Program-made: the position numbers and the translations under genes
Origin: Chiloscyllium plagiosum
Lineage: Eukaryota
DNA length: 64,000 bases
NCBI RefSeq assembly: GCF_004010195.1
Contig: NC_057718.1
Coordinates: 72,204,071-72,268,070 of the forward strand
Direction of reading: 5' to 3'
Shown: positions 14,204-59,896 of the stretch, in pieces
Layout of the letters: each line of letters starts with the position of its first letter
Numbering within the stretch: position 1 is the stretch's first letter
Notes under the pieces: generated by a model
Told to the model about the DNA's origin: nothing
Database searches by the model: none
What the model saw: only the letters and a program-made list of their open reading frames with translations

Positions 14204-14439
14204 GACAAAAGTGAGGACTGCAGATGCTGCAAACCAGAGTTAGATCAGAGTGGTGTTGGAAAAGCACAGCAGGTCAGGCAGCATTCGAGGAGCAGGAAAA
14301 TCAACATTTCGGGCAAAAGCCCTTCATCAGGATTAGAGGTTCTATTCCTGATAAAGGGTTTTTGCCCGAAATGTCAATTTTCCTGCTCTTCGGATGCTGC
14401 CAGGCCTGTTGTGCTTTTCCAGCACCACTCTGATCTAAA
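14204..14439. mobile_element. Penelope-derived palindromic insertion with two back-to-back hammerhead motifs
   Basis: Inverted arms of about 100 bp. TSD cttcaggaagaa(t/c)ata at 14188-14203 and 14440-14455. Confidence 0.85.
14299..14334 (-). ncRNA. Minimal type I hammerhead ribozyme motif
   Basis: AAUC-CUGAUGA-A-GGGC(UUUU)GCCC-GAAA-UG-UU/GAUU. Canonical core, 4-bp stem I and 4-bp stem II. Helix III is probably CpG-decayed from ACGU. Confidence 0.7.
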
Positions 14440-14859
14440 CTTCAGGAAGAACATAACCTTCCTGTACATCTTCAATGCAGTGACAATGGTGGGGGCACTG
14501 ACCACCCCTGCCGAGCCTTCATCAGGCTCCTGTCCGAAATGTCAATTTTCCTGCTCCTTGGATGCTGCCTGATCTGCTGTGCTTTTCCAGCACCACCCTA
14601 ATCTTGACTCTCAATCAGCTTCAGCTGCTCTCAGCTACAAACAGGTGTTGCCACTCCAGCTTTCCAGTTTCAATTACAGCAGCAGAGTGCAGACTCCAAA
14701 TGCACTACCCTCCACAAGGAAAGTAACCCTCCTCTACTACACTTTATATCCACTCTTCTAGCCACTTTTGTATCCAAATGGTTAGTTTTCTCACCTTGCA
14801 TGTGATCTAAACTTGTTAACCACAAGGTATGCATGCTTGATAAATCTTCTGGAATTTTT

Positions 14860-15870
14860 TCAGGATGTGATGAAGAGAGAAGACAAGGGTGAATTAGTGG
14901 GTGATGTGTATCTAGACATCCAAAAGGCTTTTGAATAAGCTCCCACACAAGAGATTAGTAAGCAAAGTTAAAGCTCTTGTATTGGAGGCAATGTATTGAC
15001 ATGGATAGAGAACTGGTTGGCAGACAGTTGAAATAAATGGGTCCTTTTCAGAATGGCAGGCTAGATACTACAAGGTTCAGTGCTTGGACCCCAGCTGTTC
15101 ACAATATATAATACAGGTTTGGATAAAGGAAGTGAATGTAATATCTCCTAATTTGCATATTGGGAGTTGAGTGGTAGTGTGTGCTGTGAAGAGGATACTC
15201 AAGAGGCTGCAGAGTGACTTGGAAGGCTGGCTGAATGGGCAAATATGCAGCAAATCCAAAATATTTGGTCACAAAAACAAGGTGGCAGATTATGATTTGA
15301 ATGATGGTAGCTTAGGAGAAACTGAGATGCAATGAGGCCTGCGTGTTATGTTCTAGTCTTCATAGTGAGAGGATTTGAGTATGAGTAGGGACTCAGTTGT
15401 ACTGGGCCTTAGTGAGGCTACTCCTTGAGAACCATGTGCAAGTTTGATCTCCAAGTCTGGAGGCTTGGACATTCATGCTATTGAGGGAGTCCAGTGAAAG
15501 TTCACCAGACTGATTTCTGGGATGGCAGGACTGACTTATAAAGTAAGAATGGATCAACTGGGCTTGTACTTGCTGGAATTTAGAAGAATGAGGCAGGATG
15601 TGAAAGGAACATGTAAAATCCTGATGACAGGCTAGGTGTGGGAGGAGTATTCCTGATGTTGGGGAAGTCAGGAACTAGGGGTCACAATCTAAGAATAAGA
15701 AGTAAGATGAGGAAGAATCTTTTCACTCTGCGAATTTTGAACCTGTAGAATTCTCTACTGCAGAAAGCTATTGAGGGCCAGTTCATTCATTTATCCAAGA
15801 CAGAGCTGGATGTGACCCTTGCAGTTAAAAGGATCAAGGGGTATGGACAGAAAGTGGGAGTGAGATACTT
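14860..15870 (+). mobile_element. Old decayed CR1 3' half
   Basis: Degenerate DIQKAF / VLGPQLF / NLWNSL-type RT and 3' motifs. Confidence 0.7.
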
Positions 15871-15924
15871 ACCCAGAACCAGAATTTTGTTTTCAGCGGT
15901 TGTTGCTGGTGCCTCAGCAGGATT

Positions 15925-16014
15925 CCTGAAGAAGGGCTTGTGCCCGAAATGTCGATTGTCTTGCTCCTTGGATGCTGCCTGACCTGCTGCGCTTTTCCAG
16001 CAACACATTTTTCA
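15925..16014 (+). mobile_element. Penelope-derived mini-insertion with hammerhead core (CUGAAGA 15926-15932, GAAAUGUC 15946-15953)
   Basis: TSD gcctcagcaggatt at 15911-15924 and 16015-16028. Confidence 0.8.
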
Positions 16015-17079
16015 GCCTCAGCAGGATTGGAAGGTGCAGTAAAACTGTCCCAGCTGCTTCACACTCTCTCAATTTTATCTTTTCTTTCCTCTTGGGCTGC
16101 TGAATTTGCATGTTTTCTGAATTTGGCCAAGGGTGAATTTATGGGATGTTACTATATTGGAACAGTTAATAGATAAAGTAACTATTATGAATTATTTAAG
16201 TTTTCCAGTAGAGTTGTTATTCCAATTCCTCCTTTCTTTGTTGTTTTAACTATAATGAATGAATAAAGTATGCTTTGCTTTAAATCTAGTTTATTGGCCA
16301 ATCAAATTGCATCTGGAATACAACAGCTTACATTTACCTTTTACCTTTTTTAAAATAAGAAACAGTTTGGGTCTAGACTACCTTCTGTAGGTGGGTTTGT
16401 CTGGTACATAACACTAGATACCAAGTTGTCACAGTTCTTATTTAATTATAGGACTGTGTGCATGTTTGGTCTCCAAGTCTGGAGGCTTGGACATTCATGC
16501 AACTACAGGGGTAGTACTGGCAGAGTTGCTAATGGGTAGAAGACCTCACACCAGGCTGAGTCTGATCTTCCTGCATCTGGGGAGAGGGTGAAATGGTATT
16601 GGGAGCTCTGATGCCAAATCCAGAACCCAAGCTGACGCTTAACAGGTCTAGGCAGTGGGCCGTAGAGGGGCTTGTTTTGGCCGACTATCATCCCTTCTCT
16701 GTGGCTACATTCATGCTTGGACGTATCTGGAGCAGAAGCACATGGTATCCACCACCACTCTCGAGGTCTTTACGGATGGGAGGGCACCACTGGATGTGCA
16801 ACGCTTTGCTTCCCCTTCCAATCTATTTTGATTTAATCTGTACCTTGACCTTCACTTTTTCATTTACGTAGGCATTGCATGACAGGGGTCTGCGAGTTAT
16901 TGTTTTCCTGGCCACATGGGTGTTTTTCTTGGAGGTGAAGTATTAATCCTAGTGTTTTCACTGTCTCGCATGTACATGGGCAAAAGTAAGCACGACTGCT
17001 GTATGGCAGTAGTGTAGGGGCATAAAAAAACATAAATAGTAGATTTCCCTCCTCCTGGTTTTGTCATAAACATACAAAG

Positions 17080-20000
17080 AACACTGATTCACCTCTGGGG
17101 CAAATAGATGCACTGGGTCATGACACTGGTTCTGAATCTCTGGATTGAGGAGGTTGCTGGCAGTGCATCGGCATTTTCCATCAGACCTTGCAGTGATTAT
17201 CTTTATGATGAACCTCCTCCTAGGTATTGCATCCTGGCAACATATTTTTTCTACCAGGTGTGTAACCTCAACAGTGACAGACAGCTCCTGTTTATTGGCT
17301 GCGATGGTTTGGAGGTCGCCTTCAGGATGCTGCCTGACATTTACCAGGACCTAATCACTTCTGGGACATGGTTGACTTGAGCCAGGCCTACACTCTGGCA
17401 GGAGTAGAGGCTATTGTCAGAGAGCCATCGCTCAGGAACCTGCACTTCCACAATCACAGGTTCGAGTGGCTGGTAGAGGACCCCAGCAGTGGGGGTGAGC
17501 ATGGTTTGGGATATACTGGATGGTGGGGGCCTGGTCTGAATGCTGCAGCAGGAATTGGCATCTAGGGCGATGGTAGACATCCAGCTTGTTACCACTGGCA
17601 TCCAACGCCTTAAAACAGCACTGCTTGGATCTGACATTGTATACCAGTCGGAGGATGCTCAGGTGTGCAGTGAAATCCAGTCTGTGCATAACCCCTGCAT
17701 GAATGAACTTTCACAATGGTCCCAGGCTCCTGTACTTCCCCTCGATGCCTGTGCCCAACAGCCTGAAATTTACGTTGTATGTCTTTTAAGGAAGCAAAAC
17801 AGTGGGCCCTTTATAAACTGCAGTTGCACACCATCATTGATTAGAAATGTTATAGCTCTAGTACGTCAGATGGATCAGTTTTTGTCCAATGTGTACAGGC
17901 GTGTTTCTGACACAGTATGTCGAAGGGTTGACAAGAGGGGAGGCCACACTGGATCTCCTGCTGGGAATGAACCAGGCCAGGTGTTTGATTTAGTTATAAG
18001 TGAGCACTTTGGAGAGAGTGACCATAATTCAGTTGCGTTTAGTTTAGTAATGGAAAGGGATCGGTACATGCCACAGGTCAAGAGTTATCGATGGGGCAAG
18101 GACAATTATAATGCGATAAGGCAAGAATTAGGATGCATAGAATGGGGTAGCAAAATGCAGGGGATGCAGACAATTGAAATGAGGAGCTGGTTTAAGGAAC
18201 AGATATTAGGTGTCCTTGATAGGTATGTCCTTGTCAACAGGGAGGAAGTGATAAGGGAAGGGAACCATAGTTTACTACAGAAATTGCATCTCTTGTTAAG
18301 AAAAAAGTGGCTTACGTGTTGATGAGGCACCATGATACAGATGAAGTGATGGAGAGTTACAGATCAGCTAGGAAGGATTTAAAGAGAGAGTTAAGAAGAG
18401 CAAAGAGAGGATGAGCAGTCTTTAGCAAATAGAATAAAGGAGAACACTAAAGCTTTCTATATAGGTATGTGAGGAATAAAAGGATGATTAGGGTAGGAAT
18501 AGGGCCAGTCAAAGACAGAAGCAGGAAGTTGAGAAGTGAACCCTGTAAAGATCGGAGAGGTGCTAAATGAATATTTCTCATCGGTGTTTACTCAGGAAAA
18601 GGAGAATATTGTAGAGGAGAAGAATGAGGTATGAGATATTAGACGAGAAAGGATTTAGGTTAGTTATGCACAGGTGTTATCAATTCTAGAAGGAGTGAAA
18701 ATAGACAAGTCCTCTGGGCCAGATGGGATTTATCCGAGGATTCTCAGGGAAGCTAAGGAGGAGATAGCAGAGCCTTTGGCTTTGATATTTGAATTGTCAT
18801 TGTCTGCGGGTTTAGTACCTGAGAACTGGAGGATTGCAAATGTTGTGCCCTTGTTCAAGAAGGGCAGCGGAGATGACCCAGGTAATTATAGACCAGTGAG
18901 CCTTACTTCTGTTGTAGGAAAAGTTTTGGAAAGGATTATAAGAGATAAGACTTTTAATCATCTAGCAAGTAACAGTTTGATTTCAGGTAGTCAACATGGT
19001 TTCATCAAGGGCAGGTCGTGTTTCTCAAACTTCATTGAGTTTTTTGAGATGGTGACCAAGCATGTAGATGAGGTAGGGCAGTTGACGTGGTACACTTGGA
19101 CTTCAGTAAAGCCTTTGATAAGGTTCCACATGGTAAGCTGATGGAGAAAATGCAGAGGCATGGAATTGAGGGTGATTTAGCAGTTTGGATTAGAAACTGG
19201 CTTTCTGGAAGAAGACAGCGAGTGGTGGTTGATGGAAAATATTCAGTTAGGAGTCCAGTTACTAGTGGTGTTCCACAAGGATCTGTTTTGGGACCACTGC
19301 TGTTTGTCATTTTTATAAATGACTTAGACGCAGGCATAGATGGATGGATTAGTAAATTTGCAGACGACACTAAAGTCTGTGGAGTAGTGGACAGTTTGGA
19401 AGAATGTTACAGGTTGCACGGGGAATTGGATAAACTGCAGAATTAGGCTGAGAGGTGGCAAATGGAGTTCAATGCAGCTAAATGTGAGGTGGCAAATGGA
19501 GTTCAATGCAGCTAAATGTGAATTGATGCACTTTGGGAAGAATAACAGGATTACAGAGTACATCATCAATGGAAAGATTCTTGGTAGTGTGGATGTGCAG
19601 AGGGATCTTGGAGTCCATGTGCATTGATCCCTGAAAGTTGCCACCCAGGTAGATAGTGCTGTTAAGAAGGCATACGGTGTGTTAGGTTTCATTGGTAGAG
19701 GGATTGAGTTCCGGCACCTCAATATCATGTTGCACCTATACAAAATGCTGGTGCGGCCACACTTGGAATATTGTGTACAGTTCTGGTTGCCCCATTACAA
19801 AAAGGAAGCATTGGAAAAGGTGCACAGGAAATTTGCCAGGATGTTGCCTGGTCTGGAGCAAAGGTCTTATGAGGAAAGGCTGAGAGACTTGGGTCTTTTC
19901 TCATTGGAAAGAAGAAGGCTAAGGGGGGATTTGATAGAGACATATAAGATGATTAGAGGATTAGATAGGGTAGACAGAGAAAGACTTTTTCCTAGGATGA

Positions 20001-20965
20001 TGACGTCAGCTTGTACGAGAGGACATAACTACAAATTGAGGGGTGATAGATTTAAGACTGATGTCAAAGGCAAGTTCTTTACACAGAGAGTGGTAAGGGT
20101 GTGGAATGCCCTACCTGCTAAGGTAGTCAACTCAACCAGATTAGGGAGATTTAAACAATCCTTAGATAAGCTCATGGATGATTTTGGGATAATGTAGGGG
20201 GAACGAGCTGAGAAAAGTCCACAGGTCGGCGCAACATTGAGGTCCGAAGGGCCTGTTCTGCGCTGTAATGTTCTATATTTTATCCACCTCTTCTCCCTCA
20301 TCCACCATTTGGATACACCTTGGCATGCCCATTTACCACCAGGCTGTGGGGATTCCCACTGAAGGGGTCTCTACATGGGGGCTCTCTCTCTTTTGCCTTA
20401 GGGATCTGGGATGGAGGATGTTGCATGCAGCAATCCCTTGCAACCACAGATTGCAATGGTTCATGGACTCCCAGCCCAATTATTTCTTTTGCAGTGCTGT
20501 GTAGTTCGTGGACCATGTGTATACTGATTGTGGGTATTTGCACTCCCTTTTCAGTTAATTACCTTTTGCTCTCTTTTTGGTTGCTTTTCAGTCCCATGCT
20601 CCTGCTATTTGAGTACTTGGTGCCAAGGAGTGCGGAGGATCTTCTTGTGGGTCTGCTCCTGGCCATGGCATTTCAGCTGACTGCGTGCCTCTCTTCCATG
20701 GTTGCGTTCAAGCCTGGGTGTCCTTGGAGAGGGAGTATGTGGTGTCCACCAATGCCCTAGATGCCTTTAAGGAGAGGTGGGCACTACAGGGGGTGGAGTG
20801 CCTTATTTGCCCCTCTAATTCCACTTTAATTTTGATTCAATCCCTACTCTCCCCTTCACTTTTTTCACGTAAGCATTATCGGGCTTTGCTTGGTACTGGT
20901 TCTGTGGCCACATTGGTGTTTTCCTGTTGGTGTAAATATTGAATAAAGTTTTTTGCACATGATGT
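17080..20965 (+). mobile_element. Tx1-clade LINE ORF2 3' portion, interrupted by a CR1
   Basis: YLYDEPPPRYCILATYFFYQV...LPDIYQDLI (17108-17380) and the C-terminal DLGWRMLHAAIPCNHRLQWFMDSQPNYFFC (20268-20504). 3'UTR ends tgaataaag. Confidence 0.7.
17840..20280 (+). mobile_element. 5'-truncated CR1 LINE (APE C-terminus to 3'UTR)
   Basis: ORFs 18674-20197 carry PGNYRPVSLTS, DFSKAFDKVPH, GVPQGSVLGP, SKFADDTK and RPHLEYCVQFW. Confidence 0.92.
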
Positions 20966-20979
20966 CTTCTCTGAGTCTC

Positions 20980-21735
20980 TGTACATACAAATCAACACAG
21001 GTGCTGTGGGAAAAGAAATATATATATAGACAGCAAATTCAGAGTCTCCTTGCTTCAGGGATAGAATCCAAGCCAAGGTACATGTACACATGTAAATAAA
21101 GGGTGATGTGGTGACATGATACTGGTCTGTTTGCAATTATTTCATTTGGGTTGGTCCAACTGTCCTGAATAAGTACACAGACCATTTGAAAGCTGCAAAT
21201 TTGCAGATTACATGGATGCAAAATCCGCCCTGCACCTTAAAGCCTTCACAAATACTTCAAGGTCTCATTAATTCATCCTTTCTCTCAAACATTGTGAAGT
21301 CCTCTGAATCAGAGATAGACATGTCGGAAATACGCCTCAATGCTTCTGCCTTCAGAAGAAGGGACTGGAAGTCTATCAAGGCATTCCAGGTGCAAGAAGC
21401 AAACTCCGGTTTGTTACATGCTTCCTCTGTTGGTTTCCATGTTAGAGGACCTGGTGTTACATGCCGGAGGAAGCGCTCAAAGGAATCAGACCACCCCTTG
21501 TCTGTGGACTCAGAGTCAGAGGAATGTCGTGATTGGAATGAGGTTAGCACATTGGACGTCTTAGAATATGAGCTGTTAATATGGTTACATCAGGGACACC
21601 TGGCTGGTAAGAAGGATGAATGTCGGGCCCCAAATGCTTGACTCAGTGATAGGCAATGCTGTTTTCATAGTTCATGCATTTATAGATAAAGGGTGATTGA
21701 TGTTGGGATGCTGGCCTCTGATGAGTTATTCCAGT
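20980..21735 (+). mobile_element. Probable Gypsy-type LTR retrotransposon remnant
   Basis: Two related LTR-like pieces (ataaagggtga...tggcctctg-like) at about 21080-21135 and 21670-21735 flank an integrase-tail-like VLNKYTDHLK stretch. A similar LTR-like piece lies at about 37110-37230 (-). Confidence 0.4.
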
Positions 21736-21939
21736 TCTGTGTTTAATTCTATAGAGAAGTTGTTGGCCAGAGACTGTAGCATTCAGGTCAGGATGGTCCA
21801 CTGCTTTTATTCTGCCAGGAAGTAAATGCAGGGTGCTCTTGAGAACACAAACATATAAACAAGGAACAAGATTATTCCTTTAGGGTCATCAATAAAATCA
21901 GATGTTAATCTGAAATCTAGTCCTGCATATCCCAACTCA

Positions 21940-22360
21940 CTTCACCTGACGAAGGAGCAGCACTCTAAAAGCTTGTGGTTTCAAATAAACCTGTTGAACC
22001 ACTGTGCCACCGTGGGGGCGGCACGGTGGTTAGCACTGCTGCCTCACAGCACCAGAGACCCGGGTTCAATTCCCGCCTCAGGCGACTGACTGTGTGGAGT
22101 TTGCACGTTCCCCCCGTGTCTGCGTGGATTTCCTCCGGGTGCTCTGGTTTCCTCCCACAGTCCAAAGATGTGCAGGTCAGGTGAATTGGCCATACTAAAT
22201 TGCCTGTAGTGTTAGGTAAGGGGTAAATGTAGGGGTATGGGTGGGTTGCACTTCGGCGGGTCGGTGTGGACTTGTTGGGCCAAAGGGCCTGTTTCCACAC
22301 TGTAATGTAATGTAATCTAATCTAATGAACTATAAGCTGGTGTTGTGTGACTTCTGACCT
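21940..22360 (+). mobile_element. Penelope 3' tail (second family) with degenerate hammerhead, split by a SINE
   Basis: cac-CTGACGA-aggagcagcactct-AAAA-gctt-gtg...aaataaacctgttg, continuing after the SINE as tataagctggtgttgtgtga. Same tail as at 56700-56795 (-). Confidence 0.65.
22000..22326 (+). mobile_element. HE1-type SINE with an inverted 5' head
   Basis: Full SINE body from 22016, preceded by cactgtgccaccgtg, the reverse complement of the SINE head. Short TSD tgaac. Confidence 0.88.
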
Positions 22361-22479
22361 GGTTTTAAATGGGCATCCCCTTATCTTTAAACTAGTTCTA
22401 GAATCTCCCACCAGAAGAAACATTCTTTCGACATTCACCTGGACATGTTTCCTCAGAATCTTATAAGTTTGGACTTTTT

Positions 22480-30568: not shown

Positions 30569-30770
30569 ATGGAAATGTGTTGCTGGAAAAGCGCAGCAGG
30601 TCAGGCAGCATCTAGGGAACAGGAGAATCGACGTTTCGGGCATTAGCCCTTCTTCAGGAATGCCCGAAACGTCGATTCTCCTGTTCCCCAGATGCTGCCT
30701 GACCTGCTGCGCTTTTCCAGCAACACATTTCCATCTCTGATCTCCAGCATCTGCAGACCTCACTTTCTCC
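30569..30770. mobile_element. Penelope-derived near-perfect palindromic insertion with hammerhead
   Basis: About 77-bp arms with 1 mismatch. TSD atccttcctatagtg at 30554-30568 and 30771-30785. Confidence 0.9.
30626..30661 (-). ncRNA. Minimal type I hammerhead ribozyme motif, sense to the SERAC1 pre-mRNA
   Basis: AUUC-CUGAAGA-A-GGGC(UAAU)GCCC-GAAA-CG-UC/GAUU. Intact core with palindromic helix III (ACGU). Confidence 0.75.
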
Positions 30771-31172: not shown

Positions 31173-31208
31173 ATTCCTGAAGAAGGGCTCATGCCCGAAA
31201 CGTCGATT
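31173..31208 (+). ncRNA. Minimal type I hammerhead ribozyme motif
   Basis: AUUC-CUGAAGA(31177-31183)-A-GGGC(UCAU)GCCC-GAAA-CG-UC/GAUU. Predicted cleavage after 31204. Confidence 0.75.
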
Positions 31209-31295
31209 CTCCTGCTCCTTGGATGCTGCCTGACCTGCTGCGCTTTTCCAGCGACACATTTTCAGCTCCGATCTCCAGCATCTGCAGTCCTCACT
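31176..31295 (+). mobile_element. Penelope-derived mini-insertion inside a SINE 3' fragment (about 31103-31345, -)
   Basis: TSD ttctcctaccctatt at 31161-31175 and 31296-31310, overlapping the element ends. Confidence 0.85.
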
Positions 31296-32309
31296 TTCTC
31301 CTACCCTATTACCCTACATTTCCCATGACTATTGCATCTAACCTATGGCTTATGTGCCAACTCCCCCAAGATCCCATCTAAATAATGAGATCATCTGGAG
31401 AAACCAGCAATTAACCATCTGCTCAGTATACTGCTGTTGAGAGTGCACACAGACATGAGTGGCATTGATGGGGCGACATGGAGTTAATGGCGAGAGGGCT
31501 TAACAACCATGAACATAACTGGACCACTGTCTTAGCAAATGGGCCACTGTCTTAGCACTGTCTAATCTGCCTACCTCCATTACCAACTTGGGAAATGGCA
31601 GCTATAACCTAATACCTGACTCCTAGAGATCAAGATATAAAGTTAACATTCACATCTAGTTCAACAGGGTTAGAAGGTGCTTTCAAACTGTAGATTGGCA
31701 GAACCGAATAGTCTGGTGAACATTAGCACCCAGATGCCAGGTGCAATATGGGGAACTATCAAGTCATGTTGCTGCTGAATAGATATTTTGAAAATGAAGG
31801 GCAATTGTCATACTGCAGATCTAGCACCTCTTCACTGATATTTTAGCCACACATCCACACCATATGGCTGTTGCCCCTCGAATCTTCTGTCTTTTTTTTG
31901 CAAGGCAGTGGGAAGAAGTCATGGTTGCTATGTGCCTTTATGTATCATATACTGGAATCAGTCTGCTTCCTGACACCATTCAATGCCACTAATTAGACAC
32001 AAAGTTGCCCAATCTGCATTTAAAGATAGCATAGTTGTAGGAATGCACATGCAGTGAGAAGTCTGGACCCAGAAATTATACAGGCACTGGGTTTCCAAAC
32101 TCAGATTGCAAACTGAAATTCCATATGCAACCCTCAGAAATATTTATATACAGGTGAAAGTGAGGACTGCTTTTTTTGGTCAAGCACAATCTGCCTTTGA
32201 CAAATCCATGTTGGCTACCCTTTAAAGAGACTTTTCCAAGTAACTGTTGATTTTATTTCTGAATATTGCATATGAAACCTTATCCAACGCTGATGCTGGA
32301 CCATCTAGA

Positions 32310-32530: not shown

Positions 32531-32561
32531 AAGCTGCCTCTGCACATCTAAACACACATTA

Positions 32562-36449: not shown

Positions 36450-36670
36450 AATAGAAATTGCCAGAGAAACTCAGCAGGTCCATCAACATCTGTGGAGAGA
36501 AAACAGAATTAACGTTGAATCTGTTGACTCTTCTTCAGAATGAGAAGCAGCGAAAAAAAAATGGAAACTGGACTCAGCAGTAACTCTGCTTTCTTTCCAC
36601 AGATGCTGCCAGACCTGCTGAATTTTTCCAGCAATTTCTTTGTTTCACATCTTTGGCATCTGTACGTCTT
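36450..36670. mobile_element. Older palindromic Penelope-derived insertion (third family) with degenerate hammerhead
   Basis: Inverted arms cagcaggtc...tctgtgga / tccacagatgctgccagacctgctg. Minus strand reads CUGAAGA-A-GAGUC(AACA)GAUUC-AACGUU. Related pieces at about 33290-33400 and 53860-53985. Confidence 0.6.
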
Positions 36671-39829: not shown

Positions 39830-39957
39830 TCTTCTTCAGGAATCTAAGCCCGAAACGTCAATTCTCCTTCTCCTTGGATGCTGCCTGACCTGCTGCGCTT
39901 TTCCAGCAACACATTTTTAAGCTCTGATCCCCAGCATCTGCAGTCCTCACTTTCTCC
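39830..39957 (+). mobile_element. Penelope-derived mini-insertion with a short 5' fold-back
   Basis: cttcttcaggaat (inverted hammerhead start) followed by gcccgaaacgtca...cagtcctcactttctcc. Confidence 0.75.
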
Positions 39958-49899: not shown

Positions 49900-52800
49900 G
49901 AGTGCTAAAGGAAGGGGTCCCAAAAACATTTGATGCATCGGTGGTCACCTTCCAAAATTCAACACACCCTGGAGCAGTTCCTACAGATTGGAGGGTGCCA
50001 AATGTAATCCCACTATGTAAAAGGGAGGGAGAATAAAAACAGAAATGCAGACCAGTTTGTCTAACATCAGTAGTGGGGAGAATGTGTATCATGATGACAG
50101 AACATTTTGAAAACATTGGCGAAACTGAACAACAAAAATTAACAAATATACTGGGGTTTTGAGGCTGTAACCAGTGGAATAGATAAGGAAGAACCAGTAG
50201 GTATGGTGGATTTGGATTTCAAGAGGGCATTTGATAAGGTTACTCACAATTGGTTAGTGAGCAAAGTTAAAACATTGAGATGGGGTAATATATTGGTATG
50301 GATTGAGAATTGGTTAACAGACAGGAAACAGCGGGTCTAAATGGATCTTTTCCTGAATGGCAGGTAGTGACTACCGGGATACTGCATGGACTAGTGCTTG
50401 TGCCCCAGTTATAGAACATAGAACAATACAGGGCAAAACAGACCTTTCGGCCCTCGATGTTGCGCCGACCTGTGAACTATTCTCAGCTCGTCCCCCTTAC
50501 ACTATCCCAAAATCATCCGTGCGCTTATCTAAGGATTGTTTAAATCTTCCTAAGGTGCCTGAGTTGACTACATTAGCAGGTAGGGCATTCCATGCCCTTA
50601 CCACTCTCTGTGTAAAGAACTTGCCTCTGACATTATCTTAAATCTATCACCCCTCAATTTGTAGTTATGTCCTCTTGTACAAGCTGACGTCATCATCCTA
50701 GGAAAAGGTCTTTCTCTGTCTACCCTACCTAATCCTCTGATCATCTTGTATGTCTCTATCAAATCACCTCTCATCCTCCTTCTTTCCAATGAGAAAAGAC
50801 CCAAGTCTCTCAGCCTTTCCTCATAAGACCTTCCCTCCAGACCAGGCAACATCCTGATAAATCTCCTCTGCACCTTTTCCAATGCTTCCACGTCCTTCCT
50901 GTAATGGGTCGACCAGAACTGTACACAATATTCCAAGTGTGGCCGCAACAGCATTTTGTATAGTTGCAACATGATATTGCGGTTCCGGAATTCAATCCCT
51001 CTCCAAATGAAACCTAACACACCGTATGCCTTCTTAACATCACTATCCACCTGGGTGGCAACTTTCAAAGATCTATGCACATGGACTCCAAGATCCCTCT
51101 GCACATCCACACTACCAAGAATCTTTCTATTGACCAAGTACTCTGCCTTCCTGTTATTCTTCCCAAAGTGCATCACCTCACATTTAGCTGCATTCAACTC
51201 CATTTGCCACCTTCAGCCCAATTCTGCAGTTTATCCAAATCCCCCTGCAACCTGTAACATTCTTCCAAACTGTCTACTACTCCACCGACTTTAGTATCGT
51301 CTGTAAATTTACCAATCCATCCACCTATGCCTGCGTCTAAGTCATTTATAAAAATGACAAACAGCGGTGGTCCCAAAACAGATCCTTGTGGAACACCACT
51401 AGTAACCGGACTCCAGGCTGAATATTTTCCATCAACCACCACTCGCTGCCTTCTTCCAGAAAGCCAGTTTCTAATCCAAACTGCTAAGTCACCCTCAATT
51501 CCATGCCTCAGCAATTTCTCCAACAGCCTACCATGTGGAACCTTACCAAAGGCTTTACTGAAGTCCAGGTATATGTCAACTGCCCTGCCCTCATCTACAT
51601 GCTTAGTCACCTTCTCAAAAAACTCAGAGGTTTGTGAGACACGACTTCCCCGTGACGAAACCATGTTGACTATCTGAAATCAAATTGTTGCTCGCTAGCT
51701 GATTAAAAATCTTCTCTCTTATAATCCTTTCCAAAACCTTTCCTACAACAGAATAAGGCTCACTGGTCTATAATTACCTGGGTCATCCCTGCTGCCCTTC
51801 TTGAACAAGGGCACAACATTTGCAATCCTCCAGTCCTCAGGTACTAAACCCGCAGACAATGACGACTCAAATATCAAAGCCAAAGGCTCTGCTATCTTCT
51901 CCTTAGCTTCCCAGAGAATCCTCGGATAAAACTCATTCGGCCCAGGGGACTTGTCTATTTTCATTCCTTCTAGAATTGATAACACCTGTGCGTAACTAAC
52001 GTCAATCCTTTCTAGTCTAATATCTCGTACCTCATTCTTCTCCTCTACAATATTCTCCCTTTCCTGAGAGAACACCGATGAGAAATGTTCATTTAGCATC
52101 TCTCCGATCTCTACAGGGTCCACACTCAACTTCCCACTTCTGTCTTTGACTGGCCCTATTCCTACCCTAATCATCCTTTTATTCCTCACATACCAATAGA
52201 AAGCTTTAGGGTTCTCCTTTATTCTATTTGCTAAAGACTGCTCATGTCCTCTCTTTGCTCTTCTTAACTCTCTCTTTAAATCCTTCCTAGCTGATCTGTA
52301 ACTCTCCATCGCCTCATCAGCACATAAGCCTCTTTCTTCTTCTTAACAAGAGATGCAATTTCTGTCGTAAACCACGGTTCCCTTACCTTATCACTTCCTC
52401 CCTGCCTGACAGGGATATATCTATCAAGGACACGCAATATCTGTTCCTTAAACCAGCTCCACATTTCGATTGTCTGCATCCCTTGCATTTTGCTACCCCA
52501 TTCTATGCATCCTAATTCTTGCCTAATCGCATTATAATTACCCTTGCCCCATTGATAACGCTTGACCTGTGGCATGTACCGATCCCTTTCCATCGCTAAA
52601 CTAAAAGTAACTGAATTATGAGTTATTCGTGATTTTTTTTAATGTATAACCTGGATGAGGGAACCAAATGTAATATTACTAAAACAACACAAAACTGGGC
52701 AGGATTAAGAGCTCTGAAGAGGTTTCAAGCAGGTTTCATGGTGATTTAGGCAAGTTGAATGAATGGGCAAACACGTGGCAGATACGGTATGACATGGGTA

Positions 52801-53565
52801 AATGTGAACTTATATACCTTGATGTGAAAAACGAAAAGGAAGAGTATTATCTAAATGGTGATATTTTGATTAAATATGGTTGTACAAAGGAATGTGTTGA
52901 CCAGTCAATGAAAGTAGACAGGCAAGTGCAGCAAACAATTAGGAAACCAAATGGCATATTGGCCTTCATTTCAAGAGGATCAGAGCTCAAAAGGAGAGAT
53001 GTCTTACTGCAGGTATAAAGGGCTTTGACAAGACCATATCTGGAATATTACATACAGTTTTGATCTCCCTACTTAAGAAAGGATAAACTTACCAGAGAGG
53101 GAGTGCAGCAAAGGTTTGCTAGACTGTTACAAAGGATGACTATTCAATGGCTAGACTGGACCTGTATTTATTAGGGTTGAGAAGGATGAGTGGAGATCTA
53201 ATTGAAATGTATAACATTTGAACAGGGATGGTTGCAGAACAGGGGTAAATGCAGAATGTTTTCCCTGATTGGGGAAATCTAGAACCAAGAGTCACAGTCT
53301 CAGGAAACAGGGTATATCATTTAGGAGTGAGATGAGGAAAAGTTTATTCACTTAAAGGGTTGTGAACCCATGGAATTTTCTACCACAGAAGGTTTGGAGG
53401 CCAAGTCACTGTATACATTCAAGAAAGGGAAACTTTATTTTAACAGCACCAAGGGAATGGGGATAAAATGGGAATAGAGCATTACATAGAGGATCAGCCA
53501 TGATTAAACTGGCAGAGCTGGTTTGAAGGGTCAAATGGTCAATCTATGCTCCTAATTTCTATGAA
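49900..53565 (+). mobile_element. Old CR1 RT/3' fragment split by a younger CR1
   Basis: DWRVPNVIPL and DFKRAFDKV motifs before 50412, continuing as NEWANTWQ...KC after 52621. Confidence 0.75.
50413..52620 (-). mobile_element. 5'-truncated CR1, same subfamily as 17840-20280
   Basis: TSD agttat at 50407-50412 and 52621-52626. ORFs 50598-52593 share MMTSACTRGHNYKLRGDRFK and MQGMQTIEM with the other copy. Confidence 0.92.
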
Positions 53566-53989
53566 AGTGGAGATCACTTAAGGTGAGAGAAGAGGGAGCA
53601 TGACAAAACATTGGCAGGTATCATTACAGAACAACCTCGGTTATCCGAATTTTGGATTATCCAAAAAAGATCTCAAGGTCCCAGCACGGCTTCCTTTGTT
53701 TACGACCAGATTATTTATCTGAATAAAATACTCCCCACCCATTTAATTCAGATAATCCAGGTTGTTCTGTATATCATTTTACTTGTATATCTGGAGCAAC
53801 TGAGTAACGAGGGAAAGTAGAGCCCATTAAGGACTAAAGCATGTGGAGCTGGAAAACATAGCTGAGTTCTAAAGAAGAGCCTTACTGGATTCAGTGGTAA
53901 CTCAATGTCTTTATCCACAGATCCCATCAGACATTGAGTTTCTTTAGTATTCTGTGTTTGTTCCAGATTTCCAGCATCTATAGCATCGT

Positions 53990-54284
53990 GGGCGGCACAG
54001 TGGTTAGCACTGCTGCCTCACAGTGCCTGAGACCTGGGTTCAATTCCCGCCTCAGGCGACTGACTGTGTGGAGTTTGCACGTTCTCCCCGTGTCTGCGTG
54101 GGTTTGCTCTGGTTTCCTCCCACAGTCCAAAGATGTGCAGGTCAGATGAATTGGCCATGCTAAATTGCCCGTAGTGTTAGGTAAGGGGTAAATGTAGGGG
54201 TATGGGTGGGTTGCGCTTCGGTGGGTCGGTGTGGACTTGTTGGGCCGAAGGGCCTGTTTCCACACTGTAATGTAATCTAATCTA
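53990..54284 (+). mobile_element. HE1-type SINE
   Basis: Boxes A and B, V-domain, tail. Confidence 0.9.
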
Positions 54285-54530
54285 GATTTATAGTATTTTG
54301 GTTTTAGACATTGCTGAGTACTTATAGTACTTACTATAAACATTAAAGGAGCACTTCACATTGTCCTTTTCTATAGTGAATCCAATGTCAATATAAAAAA
54401 ATCAAAGAGGGTAACTGTGATATACATGAAATAATCAGCATGGGGGTGGGGGGTAAGGTATTAGTGGTTTCACATGCTTGAAAGTATATATACCACTAGC
54501 CCCACATTAGATGTATCACAAGCTGAGGGA

Positions 54531-54733
54531 TGAAAATGTGTTGCTGGAGAAGCGCAGCAGGTCAGGCAGCATCCAGGGAACAGGAGAATCGACGTTTCGG
54601 GCATAAGCCCTTCTTCAGGGCTTATGCCCGAAACGTCGATTCTCCTGTTCCCTGGATGCTGCCTGACCTGCTGCGCTTCTCCAGTAACACATTTTCAGCT
54701 CTGATCTCCAGCATCTGCAGACCTCACTTTCTC
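54531..54733. mobile_element. Penelope-derived near-perfect palindromic insertion with hammerhead core (54591-54618, minus strand)
   Basis: About 80-bp arms with 1 mismatch. TSD cacaagctgaggga at 54517-54530 and 54734-54747. Confidence 0.9.
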
Positions 54734-55539
54734 CACAAGCTGAGGGAGCCAAGGGAGGAGATTGTAAGGGATCTGATATTGATTTTCCAATCTTCTCTGG
54801 TCACGCGGATATCAACAGACTGGTGGTCTGATAATTCAAGGAAGGAAGGTAGGAATAAACCAGGAAACTACAGGCCAATGAATCTAATATCAATTGAAGG
54901 GAAACTGCTGGAAAAAATACTGAGGGACAGAATTAATCTCGACACAAGAATTAACTCATGACAGTCAGGGCGACTGTATCGAGGGAAATCATGCCCAACA
55001 AATTTGACTGACTTTTCTATGAAATGTACACATGGACAGTGCAGTTGTTGGAGTCTATCTAGACTTCAGAGAGAATCTTAACTGGCGTGCATTGCAAGAC
55101 CTAATTAAGAAGCTAAGGGCAATTTGCAAAATTAGATTCAAAATTAGCTTAATGGCAGGAAGCAAAGGGCAGCCTGTGACCAGTGGTGTACCACGTTTGG
55201 TGCTGAGTCCCTTGCTAATGCTATATATATATTAATGATCTAGAGATGAACTTCGAAAGTATGATCAATAAGTTTGCAGATTACATGAAGACTGGTAGTG
55301 TGGTAAAAGGCGAGGAGGAAAGCCTTAGGGTACAGGGCAAAATAGATGGGTTTATCTAGTCAGATGGGCTGAACGTGGCAAATGGAATTTCATCCTGAAA
55401 GTGAGAGGCGATTTGGAGGACCAACAAGGCAAGGGAGTAAGTACATGTTGAATGGTAGGGCCCCCGAGGAAGTGCAAAGGATTGGAGGAAAATTTGTGTG
55501 CCTGTCCATTGATCCTTGAAGGAAGCAGGGCAGTTGTAG

Positions 55540-56650
55540 AGTATTACAGCATGGAAACAGGCCCCTTAGTCCAAATTGTACATGCTGACTAAGTTTTTTA
55601 AACTGAACAAGTCCCATTTACTTGCATTTGGCCTTTATCTTTCTAAACCTTTCCTATCCATATATCTACTCACATTTTTTTAAATATTGCAATAGCACCT
55701 ACCTCTACCACTTCCTCCAGCAGCTTGTTCCATACGTGTGAAAAAGGTGCCCCTCAGGTCTGTTTTAAATCCTTCCCCTCTCACCTTAAACGTATGCCCT
55801 CCAGTTGTGGACTTCCATACCCTGCAGAAAACAGCTTGGCTATTCACCTTATCTAAAATTTTATAAACTTCAATAAGGCCACCGCTCAGTCTCCTAGGCT
55901 CCAGGGAAAAACGAATCCTCGTCCATACTGCTTCTCCTTATAACTCAAACTTTCTAGTCTTGGTAATATCCTTAAATCATTTTTCTCACCCTTTCCAGTT
56001 TAGATTTTTAGATTTTTTTTTAGATTAGATTAGATTACAGTGTGGAAACAGGCCCTTCGGCCCAACAAGTCCACACCGACCCGCCGAAGCGAAACCCACC
56101 CATACCCCTACATTTACCCCTTACCTAACACTACGGGCAATTTAGTATGGCCAATTCACCTAACCTGCACATCTTTGGACTGTGGGAGGAAACCGGAGCA
56201 CCCGGAGGAAACCCACGCAGACACGGGGAGAACGTGCAAACTCCACACAGTCGGTCGCCTGAGTCGGGAATTGAACCCGGATCTCTGGCGCTGCGAGGCA
56301 GCAGTGCTAACCACTGTGCCACCGTGCCGCCCACCAGTTTAGTAACATGATTCCCATAGCAGGGCGACCAGAATTCTATATAGTACTCCAAATGTAGCCT
56401 TAAATAGAGAAAACATGAAATTCTGATTCCGTACTCAATGCTCTGACAGATGAAGACAAGCATGCCACTTTCAAGGAACTATGTACTTGCACCCCTAGGT
56501 TTCTCTGTTCAATAACACTCCCCAGAGTCCTATAAGTCCTACTGTGGTTTGTCTTATCAAAATGCAACACCTCACATTTATCTGAATTAATAACCATTTG
56601 CCTACTGGTCCATTCGTTCAAGATTCCATTGCACTCTTAGATGGCTTCCT
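55540..56650 (-). mobile_element. Decayed CR1 3' half
   Basis: NSDKCEVLHF and HLEYYIEFWSP motifs plus the 3'UTR. Confidence 0.78.
56004..56333 (-). mobile_element. HE1-type SINE (young copy)
   Basis: TSD ccagtttag at 55995-56003 and 56334-56342. Very similar to the 11965 copy. Confidence 0.92.
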
Positions 56651-56689
56651 TCAATGTCCACTATACCACAGTGTGGACCTGCCGGTATT

Positions 56690-57565
56690 GAACCTGGGTG
56701 GAAAAGGTCAGATGTCATATGACACTGTTATAATCCAACAGGTTTATTTGAAATCACAAGCTTTCCAAGTGCTGCTCCTTTGTCAGATGAAGTGAAGAAC
56801 AGTTCACAGGCACAGCATTTATAATCAGGGAGATTGAAAGATCACACAAATGGTGTAAGCGAAGTGTCGACAGGCTGAATAGTAAGTCTCTGCCAGTGAT
56901 CAAGAGTGTCAGATGGTGCAAGTAAAGTGTCGACAGCTGAGTAGCAAGTGAAGAGATGACCTATTGTTTGCTTAACTTAAGGCAGAGAGATAATTACAAA
57001 AAATAAAAAAAAAATGAGGTGGTGCTGGAGCCAAACCAAACGATTGGAATAACATGGGTATAAGAGTCACATGCCAAAAGTCTAACCAAAGTAACAAGTA
57101 ATCCAAAACTATAAAAACTAATGTAGAGAGACCATAACAAGTTATCTAGGTGTTGGTATCAAAACAGATTGGTAAGGAAGACTTCACACACAGAATAGTA
57201 TGGTGGTGTCACCTGTCGTGTGACATGAACCCAAGATCACGATTGACACTGTCTCTGTGGGTACAGAGCTTGGCTATCACTTTATGCTCAGTGATTCTGC
57301 ATTGTTGTGCAACTTGAGTACTACCTTGGAGAATCCTTGTGAAGATTGGAGGCTGAACGTCCTTGACGCATGAATGTTCCCCGATTGGGAGGGAACATTC
57401 CTGTCTGGCTATTGTTGCGCAGTGTCCATTCATCTATTGTTGTAGCATCTGCATGGTCTCGCCAATATACCATGCCTTGGGGAATCCTTGCCTGCAGCAC
57501 ATGAGGTAGACAACCCTGGCTGAGTGACATGAGTATCTGCTGTGTATGTGGTGGGTGGTGTTTCA
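56690..57565 (-). mobile_element. Penelope-like element 3' part: GIY-YIG endonuclease, 3'UTR and degenerate hammerhead
   Basis: Minus strand reads RYSCHSARVVYLMCCRQGFPKAWYIGETMQMLQQ*MNGH...LPIGEH (VVY...YIG motif). Tail reads CUGACAA-AGGAGCAGCACUUG-GAAAGCUU-GUG at about 56755-56790. Confidence 0.85.
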
Positions 57566-57569
57566 ACAT

Positions 57570-58040
57570 ATAATGCGCCAGCACCTAACCTATCTACAGT
57601 CAGCCCTGCCTCAGCTGAGGGTCACACTCTCTCAGAATTGCAAAGGACCCACTCTGTACTACATCCTCAGGAGAATTCATACTCTCAACAAACAGTATTT
57701 CAAGTCCGTCTCAAACATCAAAAACTGGAAGTACAACAAACTTTTATCTACCCACCTCCATAACCAGCGCTCCTCAAACATTCCAGTAGATTCCCCCGGC
57801 CTCTGGAACAGCTCGGACGCCATTAGCCATGCGGCTGGTGCAGCTGCCACCCCCACGCTGACTGATGATGCCACTTCTGCCCCAATCATGGCCGCTCCCA
57901 CAGCCACTTCCGCCCCTCAAAATTCCTCATGCACCACACGTGACATCACTTCTGCCCCTCACATCATCGCTGATGTCACACGCTCAGTGACTTCCGCCCC
58001 CCACTGCCATGTTTGTCACCACTTCCGCCACCAACGCCAC
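57570..58040 (+). mobile_element. Probable N-terminal ORF piece of a Penelope-like element, inverted relative to the GIY-YIG part
   Basis: MRQHLTYLQSALPQLRVTLSQNCKGPTLYYILRRIH followed by Ala/Thr/Pro low-complexity repeats (acttccgcccc units). Assignment is from recollection only. Confidence 0.45.
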
Positions 58041-59763
58041 TCACGTACAGCACACCACAGGCCCTTTCGCCCTCTATGTTTTGAGGGCCTTCTATCCAAC
58101 TCTAAGGTCAGACTAACCTATATAGCCTTCATTGTACTAACTTCCATGTGCCTATCCAAGACCTTAAATGTACCTAATGCACCTGACTATACTACCACCG
58201 CTGGCAGTGCATTCCATGCAATCCATCGCTCTCTGGGTAAAGAACCTATTTCTGACATCTCCCCTAAACCTTCCTCCAATTATCTTAAAATTATGCCTCC
58301 AAATGATAGACATTTTCGCCATGGGAAAAAGTCTTTGGCTATTCATTCTGTGCAAGCCTCTCAATATCTTGTACACCTCTAACAAGTCACCTCTCTTCCT
58401 TCTTCACTCCAATGAGAAAAATCCTTGCTCCCTCAAACGTTCTTCATAAGCCATCTAGTCCAGGCAGCATCCTGGTAAATCTCCTCTGCACCCTCTCTCA
58501 AGCTTCCACATCTTTCCTATAATGAGGTGACCAGAACTGAACACAATATTCCAAGTGTGTGGTCTAACCAGGACTCTGAACAGCTGCAGCATAACCTCAC
58601 GGCTCTCAAACTCAATCCCCCTACTAATGAAAGCCAACACGCCACGTACCTTCTTAATATATACCTGATGACCCTGGGTGGCAATTTTGAGGGATCTATG
58701 GACGTGGACCCCAAAATCCCTCTGTTCTTCCACACTGCCAAGAAATCTGCTTTAAAACCTGTATTCTGCATTCAAATTTGACTTTCCAAAGTGAATGACT
58801 TCACATTTTTCCTAGTTGAACTCCATCTGCCACTTAGCAGCCCAGTTCTGCATGTCAATGTCTTGTTGCAACCTACAACAGCCCTCCACTCTATCCATAA
58901 CTTCACCAACCTTTGTGTCACTGACAAACTTACTAACCCACTCTTCCACTTCCTCAGCCAAGTCATTCGTAAAAATCACAAACAGCAGATGTCCCAGAAC
59001 CGATCCCTACGAAACACCACTCATCACCGAACTCCAGGCTGAATACTTTCCGTATGTCTTCTAAAGGGCCAGCCAATTCTGTATCCAGACAAACATTTTT
59101 CCCTGCATCCCATACCTACTTACTGTCTGAATGAGCCTATAATGGGAAACCTAATCAAACACCTTGCTAAAATCCATGTACATCACATCCATTGCTCTAC
59201 TATCATCAACCTGTTTTGTCACATCCTCAAAGAATTCAGTAAGATTTGAGAGGCATAACCTGCCCCTCTTAAAGCTATGCTGACTATCTCTAATAAAACT
59301 ATGGTTTTCCAAGTAATCATAAATCCTGTCTCTCAATATCCTCTCCAATACTTTGCACACCACAGCCCTAAGACTGACTGGTCTGTAATTTCCAGGATTA
59401 TTCCTATTCCCTTTCTTGAACAAGGGAATAACATTTGCCACCTTCAAAGCATCCGGCACTTTCCAATGGTCAGTGAGGACACAAAGATCATTGGCAAAGG
59501 TGCAGCAATCTCTTTCCTCGTTTCCTGTAATAACCTAGGGCACATCCCGTCTGGCCAAGCGGATTTATTTATCCTTATGTTTTTCATCATTTTCGGCACA
59601 TCCTCCTTCCTAACATCAAACTATGAGCATATCAGTCTATTTCACACTGTCCCTCTCAGTAGTAAATACAGAAGCAAAATATTCATTGAGGACTTCTCCT
59701 ACATTGTCCAACTACAGGCGTTAAGTTCCCTCCACTATCCCTGATCGGCCATACTCTCACTTC

Positions 59764-59896
59764 CTCATTCCTGAAGAAGGGCTTATGCCCTAAACGTCGA
59801 TTCTCCTGTTCCCTGGATGCTGCCTGACCTACTGCGCTTTTCCAGCAACACATTTTCAGCTCTGATCTCCAGCATCTGCAGACCTCACTTTCTCCT
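59764..59896 (+). mobile_element. Penelope-derived mini-insertion, hammerhead with GAAA>UAAA core mutation
   Basis: TSD catactctcacttc at 59750-59763 and 59897-59910. Confidence 0.85.

What the first reader, a model, noticed from the sequence alone, without database searches (positions are those of the whole stretch)
14299..59800. Family of tiny hammerhead-ribozyme-bearing Penelope-derived insertions
Seen: at least eight related 90-240 bp insertions (770, 14204, 15925, 30569, 31176, 39830, 54531, 59764). Most carry (A)UUC-CUGAnGA-A-GGGC-N4-GCCC-GAAA-CG-UC-GAUU. The stem II loop varies (UUUU, UUGU, UAAU, UCAU, UUAU) while GGGC/GCCC and the catalytic boxes are mostly kept. Established: this is the minimal type I hammerhead known from Penelope-like elements, whose palindromic helix III (here ACGU) is thought to need dimer formation (Cervera and de la Pena 2014). 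Seen: the solo copies (15925, 31176, 59764) all begin at or within a few nt of the 5' strand of stem I, and several palindromic copies fold back at the same point. Inference: the ribozyme structure sets the insert boundary, and this is a high-copy non-autonomous ribozyme-carrying unit in sharks that is probably not catalogued as an RNA family.
Basis: partly seen in the sequence, partly recalled or inferred. Interest (0 to 1): 0.75.

Follow-up and report, generated by a model that had tools for sequence, protein, structure and literature searches.

The report
Capped-leader stubs of shark Penelope retrotransposon
These tiny repeats are real and very abundant end-pieces of a known kind of jumping gene (a Penelope-like retrotransposon with a minimal hammerhead motif), and their sharp start point likely marks where the element's RNA begins rather than anything the ribozyme does, which would give a testable clue to how this poorly understood class copies itself.

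Summary
The eight insertions are real; 5 of 8 keep the full hammerhead pattern. They are not a separate non-autonomous family. The same unit is the 3' end and the 5' leader of a protein-coding Penelope-like element (RT + GIY-YIG), extrapolated to about 5x10^5 insertions. 5' ends pile up 8.7-fold at the hammerhead's front, but about 31 nt upstream of the predicted cut. That spot is an initiator-like TCATTC about 31 nt below a TATA-like motif and carries an excess G in front (1064 vs 287 and 273), the signature expected of a copied cap. The boundary is therefore likely the transcription start, not the ribozyme. Mirror-image copies pair one long-tailed with one short-tailed arm (54 of 59), which suggests both cut DNA strands prime at the two known RT start sites. 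Minimal hammerheads, pLTRs, tails and inverted arms are published for this class; I found the cap/run-off and twin-priming reading in none of the papers I read. This scan noted the same thing before in other shark genomes. New member of a known kind, with a testable mechanistic by-product.

The parts
770..925 (.). Tail-out palindrome: long arm on - (to +126), short arm on + (from about +10); no CUGAnGA; 14-bp TSD; inserted in a LINE RT fragment
14204..14439 (.). Older-subfamily palindrome, long arm on -, short arm on +, about 10-nt spacer; full core pattern on - at 14307-14330; about 16-bp TSD with one mismatch
14525..14604 (+).
15922..16014 (+). Solo short-tail copy starting at -4 to -1; core 15926-15949; 11-14-bp TSD
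30569..30770 (.). Palindrome, short arm on - reaching -4/-5, long arm on +; 15-bp TSD; same haplotype as ORF-linked copies
31173..31301 (+). Solo long-tail copy; 31173 is the A of TCATTC (inferred capped +1); same haplotype as copies linked to the ORF or 3' UTR
31177..31208 (+). Minimal type I hammerhead motif: CUGAAGA, bulged A, stem II GGGC/GCCC, GAAA, ACGU zero-loop helix III, predicted cut after 31204; stem I of 2-3 bp
   Evidence: numbering as in PMC4209133
35224..35609 (+). Older 5'-truncated relative: GIY-YIG C-terminus, 3' UTR with the TTTATCT motif, decayed hammerhead and tail
39830..39957 (+). Long-tail copy from about +15 with a short inverted stub reaching -4; core broken; no TSD seen
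54531..54734 (.). Palindrome, short arm on - reaching -1, long arm on +; 13-bp TSD; both arms share a CTTCTCC variant
59764..59895 (+). Solo long-tail copy from about -7; GAAA box mutated to TAAA; about 14-bp TSD

Best explanation
The insertions are the terminal segment (hammerhead plus tail) of a protein-coding Penelope-like retrotransposon, and they are likely made when the element's enzyme primes inside the leader of a capped RNA that starts at the A of TCATTC, 4 nt before the hammerhead core, and runs off that RNA's 5' end. Shown: the unit is both the 3' end (after RT, GIY-YIG and 3' UTR) and the 5' leader (before the ORF); copies carry TSDs of mostly 13-17 bp; there are two 3' ends about 35-40 nt apart; 5' ends pile up at -10 to +9; palindromes pair one long with one short arm. 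Inferred: the -4 end is the Pol II start (initiator, TATA-like motif, cap-derived G). The endonuclease makes a staggered cut of about 15 nt; each DNA end primes at one of the two internal RT start sites; the two cDNAs are joined head to head (palindrome), or one cDNA is joined to the target (solo), or RT jumps from the RNA 5' end to an RNA 3' end (tandem). The hammerhead was uncut in the copied RNA and rides along as a passenger.
For: Coding link: GIY-YIG above Pfam's cut-off in L055 and L090, RVT_1 E=4e-9 in L116; DKG motif and CxxxxCxxC linker; the unit runs straight into the ORF N-terminus in L135. Fixed-position 1.2-Mb sample: 112 of 225 arms end at -10..+9, hazard 0.049 vs 0.0057 per nt, 8.7-fold, p about 1e-63, mode -3/-4. 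In 33 of 38 tight TSD-flanked palindromes the furthest 5' end is at -10..+5. Of 30 ORF-N-terminus loci, the 16 whose leader reaches +7 or further never pass about -10, whereas 52 of 161 such arms do in the sample (p=0.002). 20 of these 30 loci have an ORF fragment (ending +300 to +680) joined head to tail to a second unit, which starts at -3..-6 in 17 of 20; one TSD is seen around the whole in several. Initiator-like hexamer in 31 of 39 and TTAT[CT][CT] at -40..-28 in 33 of 39 diverged arms. Base before A(-4): TG 1064, TT 287, TA 273, against a background of 33.5% TG. Still in excess after discounting 10 of 30 (56%) or 16 of 30 (47%) of the G class as otherwise templated. An untemplated G has been attributed to copying the cap (PMC3287187, passages). 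Second family: TATAAA at -40/-38, and 4 of 4 arms ending at -8 have G in place of the reference C. Palindromes: long+short in 54 of 59 (p=9e-12) and 41 of 41 with a TSD; the short arm reaches further 5' in 21 and the long arm in 15. Arms share subfamily alleles (54% vs 12% null) but 0 of 59 private alleles. PAc in vitro extends both strands, has two internal start sites that define the tail, uses uncleaved RNA and is a predicted dimer (PMC11167929, main text).
Against: No direct RNA 5' end was seen: single-cell reads cover the unit on both strands with no start pile-up, and contigs cannot show a start. The G excess is confounded: of 30 inspected G-class loci, by eye 5 could take the G from the inverted arm's -5 C, about 5 from short re-copied snippets and 3-5 from the TSD; only 1 had a clean TSD+G+element junction by script. 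At ORF-fragment junctions the base before A(-4) is mostly C, and the script count of untemplated non-C bases was 4 G of 10 (not significant), against 21 of 25 by eye in the first 100 of 343 rows. The upstream motif (TTTATCT) is only TATA-like. There is a small excess of 5' ends at +26..+30 (10 vs 5.3 expected, p=0.04, uncorrected). Family-2 ends are spread over -12..+2 (50 of 99 arms). Ends are BLAST-defined to within a few nt. 'Same RNA molecule' cannot be told from 'two RNAs of one source locus'. No uninterrupted full-length ORF and no promoter-bearing full-length copy was recovered; many loci have N runs.
Confidence: 0.7

Rival explanations
1. The ribozyme structure (or the protein bound to it) sets the 5' boundary by stalling RT or by marking a processing site.
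For: The boundary coincides with the 5' strand of stem I in family 1, and many family-2 ends lie at -5..-2. The core is kept across subfamilies while N7 and loop II vary. PAc protein assists hammerhead folding (PMC11167929).
Against: RT meets the structure from its 3' side (+31, +19), yet the ends lie beyond its 5' edge. The cut site is +27, with at most a weak excess of ends there and about 3 of the first 100 tandem junctions compatible with it (by eye). Stem I is predicted unpaired. In the GTTACC-stem families, 27 of 46 arms run past -60 and 9 of the 10 that stop at -2 merely share a different upstream sequence. The G excess is unexplained by this model.
Confidence: 0.1
2. The tiny unit also spreads as a non-autonomous, SINE-like parasite: truncated copies that keep the TATA-like motif and initiator, or short leader transcripts, are copied in trans by the element's protein.
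For: About a fifth of arms (41 of 225) keep 45 nt or more upstream and so the putative promoter. Short RNAs ending at +300..+680 were evidently copied. Trans-mobilisation by pLTR sequences alone is described in Adineta (PMC3846280, passages). Tandem hammerhead arrays exist (L331).
Against: No tiny-only subfamily: all 8 haplotypes with 3 or more copies have linked counterparts. Copies starting at -4 lack the upstream motif. PAc needs RNA beyond the last start site (first 172 nt of the ORF; PMC11167929), which tail-ending copies lack if the same holds here. This rival can coexist with the best explanation; it changes the source RNA, not the boundary.
Confidence: 0.2
3. The inverted arm is made by self-priming (snap-back) of the first cDNA or on an antisense template, and the tail asymmetry comes from endonuclease resolution, as proposed in PMC3846280 and PMC8557442.
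For: Arms share subfamily alleles; junctions often overlap by 1-3 nt; published proposal.
Against: A snap-back copy cannot reach further 5' than its template, nor gain a tail that its template lacks, yet the short arm reaches further in 21 of 36 informative palindromes. Both 3' ends also occur alone (58 long, 49 short of 107 solos), and both are RT start sites in PAc. An antisense-template variant was not tested directly.
Confidence: 0.12

Closest known systems
EN+ Penelope-like elements, Neptune/Nematis type (PMC8557442; PMC3846280)
   Same: Single ORF with RT (DKG motif), CX4CxxC linker and C-terminal GIY-YIG; hammerhead in the pLTR; heavy 5' truncation; inverted 5' arm; optional 30-40-nt tail on one end; TSD; TATA and initiator-like motifs in the pLTR were noted in Adineta.
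   Different: Extreme excess of leader-sized stubs (about 5x10^5, extrapolated) with a sharp 5' end at the initiator and a G in front; TSD mode 14-16 bp (8-10 bp in the Adineta examples); strict one-long-one-short pairing is counted here, whereas the papers say the tail is often at one end. Clade not fixed by a tree.
PAc, Poseidon of Anolis carolinensis (PMC11167929)
   Same: Two internal RT start sites about 110-130 nt past the hammerhead define the tail; hammerhead at the pLTR/ORF junction; uncleaved RNA is the template; both DNA strands are extended.
   Different: In PAc the ORF starts in stem II; here the first ATG in the long frame appears about 30 nt past the tail end (one copy). The paper does not describe paired use of the two sites in one insertion, or run-off at a capped start.
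Minimal type I hammerheads of PLEs (PMC4209133)
   Same: CUGAnGA, bulged nucleotide before stem II, G10.1-C11.1, palindromic 15.2-16.2 with no loop 3; mostly single scattered motifs 'probably related to truncated PLEs'; variable families with covariation.
   Different: Stem II is 4 bp (7-8 bp in Schistosoma) and stem I only 2-3 bp with a U-U pair (4-5 bp there). No shark example in the parts of the paper that I read.
Non-LTR retrozymes (bioRxiv 10.64898/2026.07.22.740005)
   Same: Non-coding, type I hammerhead, derived from the PLE pLTR; found in one chondrichthyan.
   Different: Retrozymes are tandem arrays with a hammerhead in each unit. The window's copies are solo or head to head with TSDs. 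Only rare tandem arrays were seen elsewhere (L331).

Membership tests
EN+ Penelope-like element | Linked ORF with PLE-type RT (DKG motif, RT core) | tested here: met
   RVT_1 E=4e-9; KPADKGG, TMDI, GPSYA and YIDD motifs in copies that end in the unit
EN+ Penelope-like element | C-terminal GIY-YIG endonuclease with CCHH | tested here: met
   PF01541 above cut-off in L055 and L090; CIRCTRC..H..H in the translations
EN+ Penelope-like element | pLTR segment with hammerhead at both ends of the ORF; inverted arm; tail; TSD | tested here: met
EN+ Penelope-like element | An intact, currently active full-length copy | tested here: inconclusive
   Only broken or gapped copies among the loci seen; young copies are 97-100% alike
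Neptune clade | CX2-5CxxC linker before the endonuclease | tested here: met
   CNRKKCKTC; shared with Nematis according to PMC8557442
Neptune clade | RT phylogeny groups with named Neptune elements | not tested
   No named reference PLE sequences were available from the tools
Minimal type I hammerhead | Core boxes, bulge, stem II, palindromic helix III, NUH | tested here: met
   5 core matches vs 0 in shuffles, 3 with ACGU intact; 103 descriptor hits in 1.2 Mb vs 0-2 in 5 shuffles
Minimal type I hammerhead | Core conserved above neighbours; stems covary | tested here: inconclusive
   Within the family: core 0.96 vs 0.86 and 0.93 downstream, p=0.058; loop II 0.76; stem II does not covary. Between families in the genome: GGGC/GCCC, GGAGC/GCTCC and GTTACC/GGTGAC stems, and ACGT vs AGCT helix III
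Minimal type I hammerhead | Self-cleavage (monomer, dimer or protein-assisted) | not testable with these tools
   Bench assay needed; stem I predicted unpaired
Non-LTR retrozyme | Tandem array with a hammerhead in at least two consecutive units | tested here: not met
   No such array in the window; one 40-nt array elsewhere
Non-autonomous SINE-like unit | Own subfamilies without coding counterparts | tested here: not met
   8 of 8 haplotypes with 3 or more tiny copies, and 83 of 100 tiny arms, have a linked counterpart within one mismatch

The most novel reading that the evidence does not exclude
Shark genomes hold a mass fossil record of the Penelope cycle. A dimeric RT-endonuclease grips one capped leader RNA at both internal start sites, primes each cut DNA strand at a different site, and makes 'strong-stop'-like cDNAs that end at the cap. 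These are joined head to head, or jump to an RNA 3' end, a step that would rebuild the upstream promoter and so explain pLTRs, inverted arms and one-sided tails by one mechanism in which the hammerhead is not cut.
Probability: 0.35. Interest if true: 0.65.

Novelty: new member of a known kind. Interest (0 to 1): 0.4.

Why it matters
The element class and its minimal hammerheads are known, so the repeat itself is ordinary. What is useful is the number of copies. How Penelope-like elements make inverted arms, one-sided tails and pseudo-LTRs is still open: PMC3846280 proposes self-priming, PMC8557442 endonuclease resolution, and PMC11167929 leaves later steps unvalidated. These copies give exact, testable predictions: RNA +1 at the A of TCATTC, one long and one short start site per insertion, and end-to-end template jumps. 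They also argue that the hammerhead is uncut in the RNA that gets copied. At about 3% of sampled bases, the family matters for shark repeat annotation; its palindromes also draw weak, below-threshold microRNA-family hits.

Tried and rejected
Rfam 15 scan: no hammerhead family at E<=1, only below-threshold miRNA-precursor hits on the palindromes. Folding of monomers: only stem II is stable, z -0.15 to -1.9. PDB sequence search with the RT fragment: nothing at E<0.03. Cleavage footprint: at most a weak excess of 5' ends at +26..+30; tandem junctions are spread over +19..+49 with clusters near +29/30 and +35-38, not +27 (first 100 of 343 rows, by eye). Splice acceptor at -4, as in D. virilis: no AG at that point and no shared leader exon seen in front of copies. 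Gene conversion between arms: 0 of 59 private alleles shared. Sequencing runs: no RNA holder listed among indexed runs. Laid single-cell RNA reads cover the unit on both strands, the ORF start thinly, and show no start pile-up, so they are uninformative about a start site; run X20 laid nothing. The TT and TA control classes were counted but their loci were not inspected. The script test of untemplated G on 35 junctions was not significant. Literature: 8 answered searches listed no paper describing this shark family, cap-G run-off in PLEs, or twin priming in PLEs; I judged most hits from titles and abstract starts only. Repbase, Dfam and subscription papers (such as Lunse et al. 2017, recalled, not read) could not be checked. 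The supplements of PMC11167929 held as text had no hits, and its figures (S2) are not held; bioRxiv supplements are closed and may list the chondrichthyan retrozyme.
Full report
Numbering: position 0 is the first C of CUGAnGA; the predicted scissile bond follows +27 (31204 in the copy at 31173).

Observation. The eight insertions are present. The full core pattern occurs 5 times against 0 in 100 shuffles. Three named copies lack a complete core (770, 39830, 59764), and only three keep the ACGU palindrome. Seven show TSDs by eye. Copies end at one of two 3' points, about +85-90 ('short') or +121-128 ('long'). Rfam 15 has no matching hammerhead model. Monomers are predicted to form only stem II.

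What the unit belongs to. Genome searches from the unit led upstream through about 250 nt of 3' UTR into a GIY-YIG endonuclease, a CxxxxCxxC linker and a reverse transcriptase with the PLE DKG motif. Pfam confirms GIY-YIG and RVT_1. The first look found 1551-2438 candidates for each of four coding stretches, a lower bound. In L135 the same unit runs directly into the ORF N-terminus, so it is both the 3' end and the 5' leader. The closest named protein is from Chiloscyllium punctatum (84%), so the host is likely a shark. No unbroken full-length ORF was among the loci seen.

Fixed-position sample. 120 stretches of 10 kb at round coordinates of the 20 largest contigs gave 278 arms. I kept 225 that reach +59..+140, score 50 bits or more and do not touch a stretch edge; 53 were dropped. 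They form 166 insertions: 59 tail-out palindromes and 107 solos, one per 6.9 kb, about 4.9x10^5 by extrapolation; all 278 arms cover 3.4% of non-N bases. TSDs scoring 10 or more were found in 54 of 166 against 0 of 150 mismatched controls, mode 14-16 bp; most solos had none at the alignment edge.

The 5' boundary. 112 of 225 arms end at -10..+9 (hazard 0.049 vs 0.0057 per nt; 8.7-fold), with the mode at -3/-4. The cause is probably not the ribozyme. The cut site is 31 nt downstream, with only a weak excess of ends there (10 vs 5.3, p=0.04 uncorrected). RT would meet the structure from the other side. Stem I is predicted unpaired. In the GTTACC-stem families of the same genome almost no arm ends at the hammerhead. 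Four lines point to a transcription start at A(-4). (i) The sequence is TCATTC, initiator-like in 31 of 39 diverged arms, with TTAT[CT][CT] at -40..-28 in 33 of 39 (39 of 41 arms could be anchored; the YYANWYY consensus and TATA spacing are recalled). (ii) Of 30 best hits to the ORF N-terminus, the 16 leaders that reach +7 or further never pass about -10, against 52 of 161 arms in the sample (p=0.002). (iii) In 20 of these 30 loci an ORF fragment ending at +300..+680 (the lower limit is set by my query) is joined head to tail to a second unit, starting at -3..-6 in 17 of 20, with one TSD around the whole in several. This reads as RT running off an RNA 5' end and jumping to an RNA 3' end. (iv) Genome-wide, T-G precedes A(-4) 1064 times, T-T 287 and T-A 273, against 33.5% expected. 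In 30 inspected G-class loci, up to about half could take the G from the inverted arm, re-copied snippets or the TSD; the excess survives either discount. By eye, 21 of 25 untemplated non-C bases in the first 100 of 343 tandem junctions are G, but a script on 35 junctions gave 4 of 10, with C dominant at ORF-fragment junctions. An untemplated G has been attributed to copying the cap in L1 and SVA insertions (PMC3287187, passages). A second family, with TATAAA at -40/-38, has G before A(-8) in 4 of 4 arms that end there, though its ends are spread over -12..+2. RNA reads did not show a start.

The palindromes. 54 of 59, and 41 of 41 with a TSD, pair one long with one short arm (p=9e-12). The short arm reaches further 5' in 21 cases and the long arm in 15, which simple snap-back cannot give. 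Arms share subfamily alleles (54% vs 12%) but no private ones (0 of 59), so they come from one source and were not converted later. PAc extends both cut strands, starts at two internal sites that define the tail, is a predicted dimer, and uses uncleaved RNA (PMC11167929, main text parts 1-2). The simplest reading is twin priming, one start site per DNA end. Whether one RNA molecule or two are used is not resolved.

Autonomy. All 8 haplotypes with 3 or more tiny copies, and 83 of 100 tiny arms, have a coding- or UTR-linked counterpart within one mismatch (58 exactly). A separate non-autonomous lineage is therefore not supported. Trans-copying of short transcripts from promoter-bearing truncated copies remains possible.

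The hammerhead. The motif is real at the level of element lineages: 103 descriptor hits vs 0-2 in shuffles; N7 and loop II vary while the boxes do not; other families carry different paired stems and a different helix-III palindrome. Excess conservation within the family is marginal (p=0.058). Activity is untested. The anatomy matches the minimal hammerheads of PMC4209133 (main text parts 1-2), which already calls most such motifs single and probably related to truncated PLEs, and found low in vitro activity even in dimers.

Prior knowledge. Inverted arms, a tail on one end and heavy truncation are described (PMC8557442 passages; PMC3846280 passages, which also notes TATA and initiator-like motifs in a pLTR). 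D. virilis Penelope starts transcription in the pLTR from an internal promoter (PMC2377424 passages). Penelope-like expansion is reported in whale shark introns (10.1101/443036 passages). Retrozymes derive from pLTRs but are tandem (10.64898/2026.07.22.740005, part 1 and passages). PMC6155905 was seen as passages. After I had recorded my reading, the scan's own notes showed 135 findings with these words in at least 15 genomes; several of the 8 shown reach the same twin-priming or leader reading. These notes are unchecked and are not counted as support.

Verdict. A real, very abundant family and a new member of a known kind. Interest 0.4, carried by the testable mechanism: capped start at -4, paired start sites and end-to-end jumps.

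Noticed in passing
L331 (G000:C7:77281029-77281363): Tandem array of a 40-nt unit (-4 to +35) holding the whole hammerhead, at least 7 copies, behind an inverted arm; most units have GAAG for GAAA. A miniature retrozyme-like array in which dimers could form.
   Followed up: partly
L273, L275, L281, L285, L286, L292-L295, L298, L300: Leader plus ORF N-terminal fragment joined head to tail to a second leader: evidence of short element RNAs with varied 3' ends and of end-to-end template jumps or circles; one such join also appears in contigs of another organism (run X2).
   Followed up: partly
L155, L157, L164, L170, L207, L233 and two copies in the window: A second hammerhead-bearing repeat family (stem II GGAGC/GCTCC, AGCT helix III, TATAAA at -40/-38) with the same two 3' ends (about +80 and +120) and palindromes; its coding partner was not sought.
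   Followed up: partly
L164, L179, L194, L204, L227, L247; L170, L186, L195, L205, L221, L275: Third and fourth families (stem II GTTACC or GTCACC type, TATAAA at -47/-50 in the third) whose copies mostly extend far upstream of the hammerhead.
   Followed up: partly
window 31177-31270 and L135: Two short upstream reading frames in the leader (an ATG in loop II/stem II, 26 codons; an ATG at +46 that runs past the tail) lie before the first ATG of the long frame and could limit translation.
   Followed up: no
L135:oriented 1000-1480; L126, L138, L139: The ORF has a low-complexity Pro/Thr/Ala repeat linker between the N-terminal domain and the RT, where many copies are truncated.
   Followed up: no
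window 838-2163(-), 4499-5242(-) and many repeats: The window is mostly LINE fragments (RVT_1 and apurinic-endonuclease hits) and about ten copies of a ~310-bp repeat (7466, 11966, 22016, 49173, 53990, 56009, 61066 and others), probably a SINE; no tRNA gene was called.
   Followed up: no
window 36602-36634: Short match to the most conserved block of the unit (+45..+78) in a different context; this block recurs in more distant families.
   Followed up: no
window 10524-11023: A 500-base run of N.
   Followed up: no
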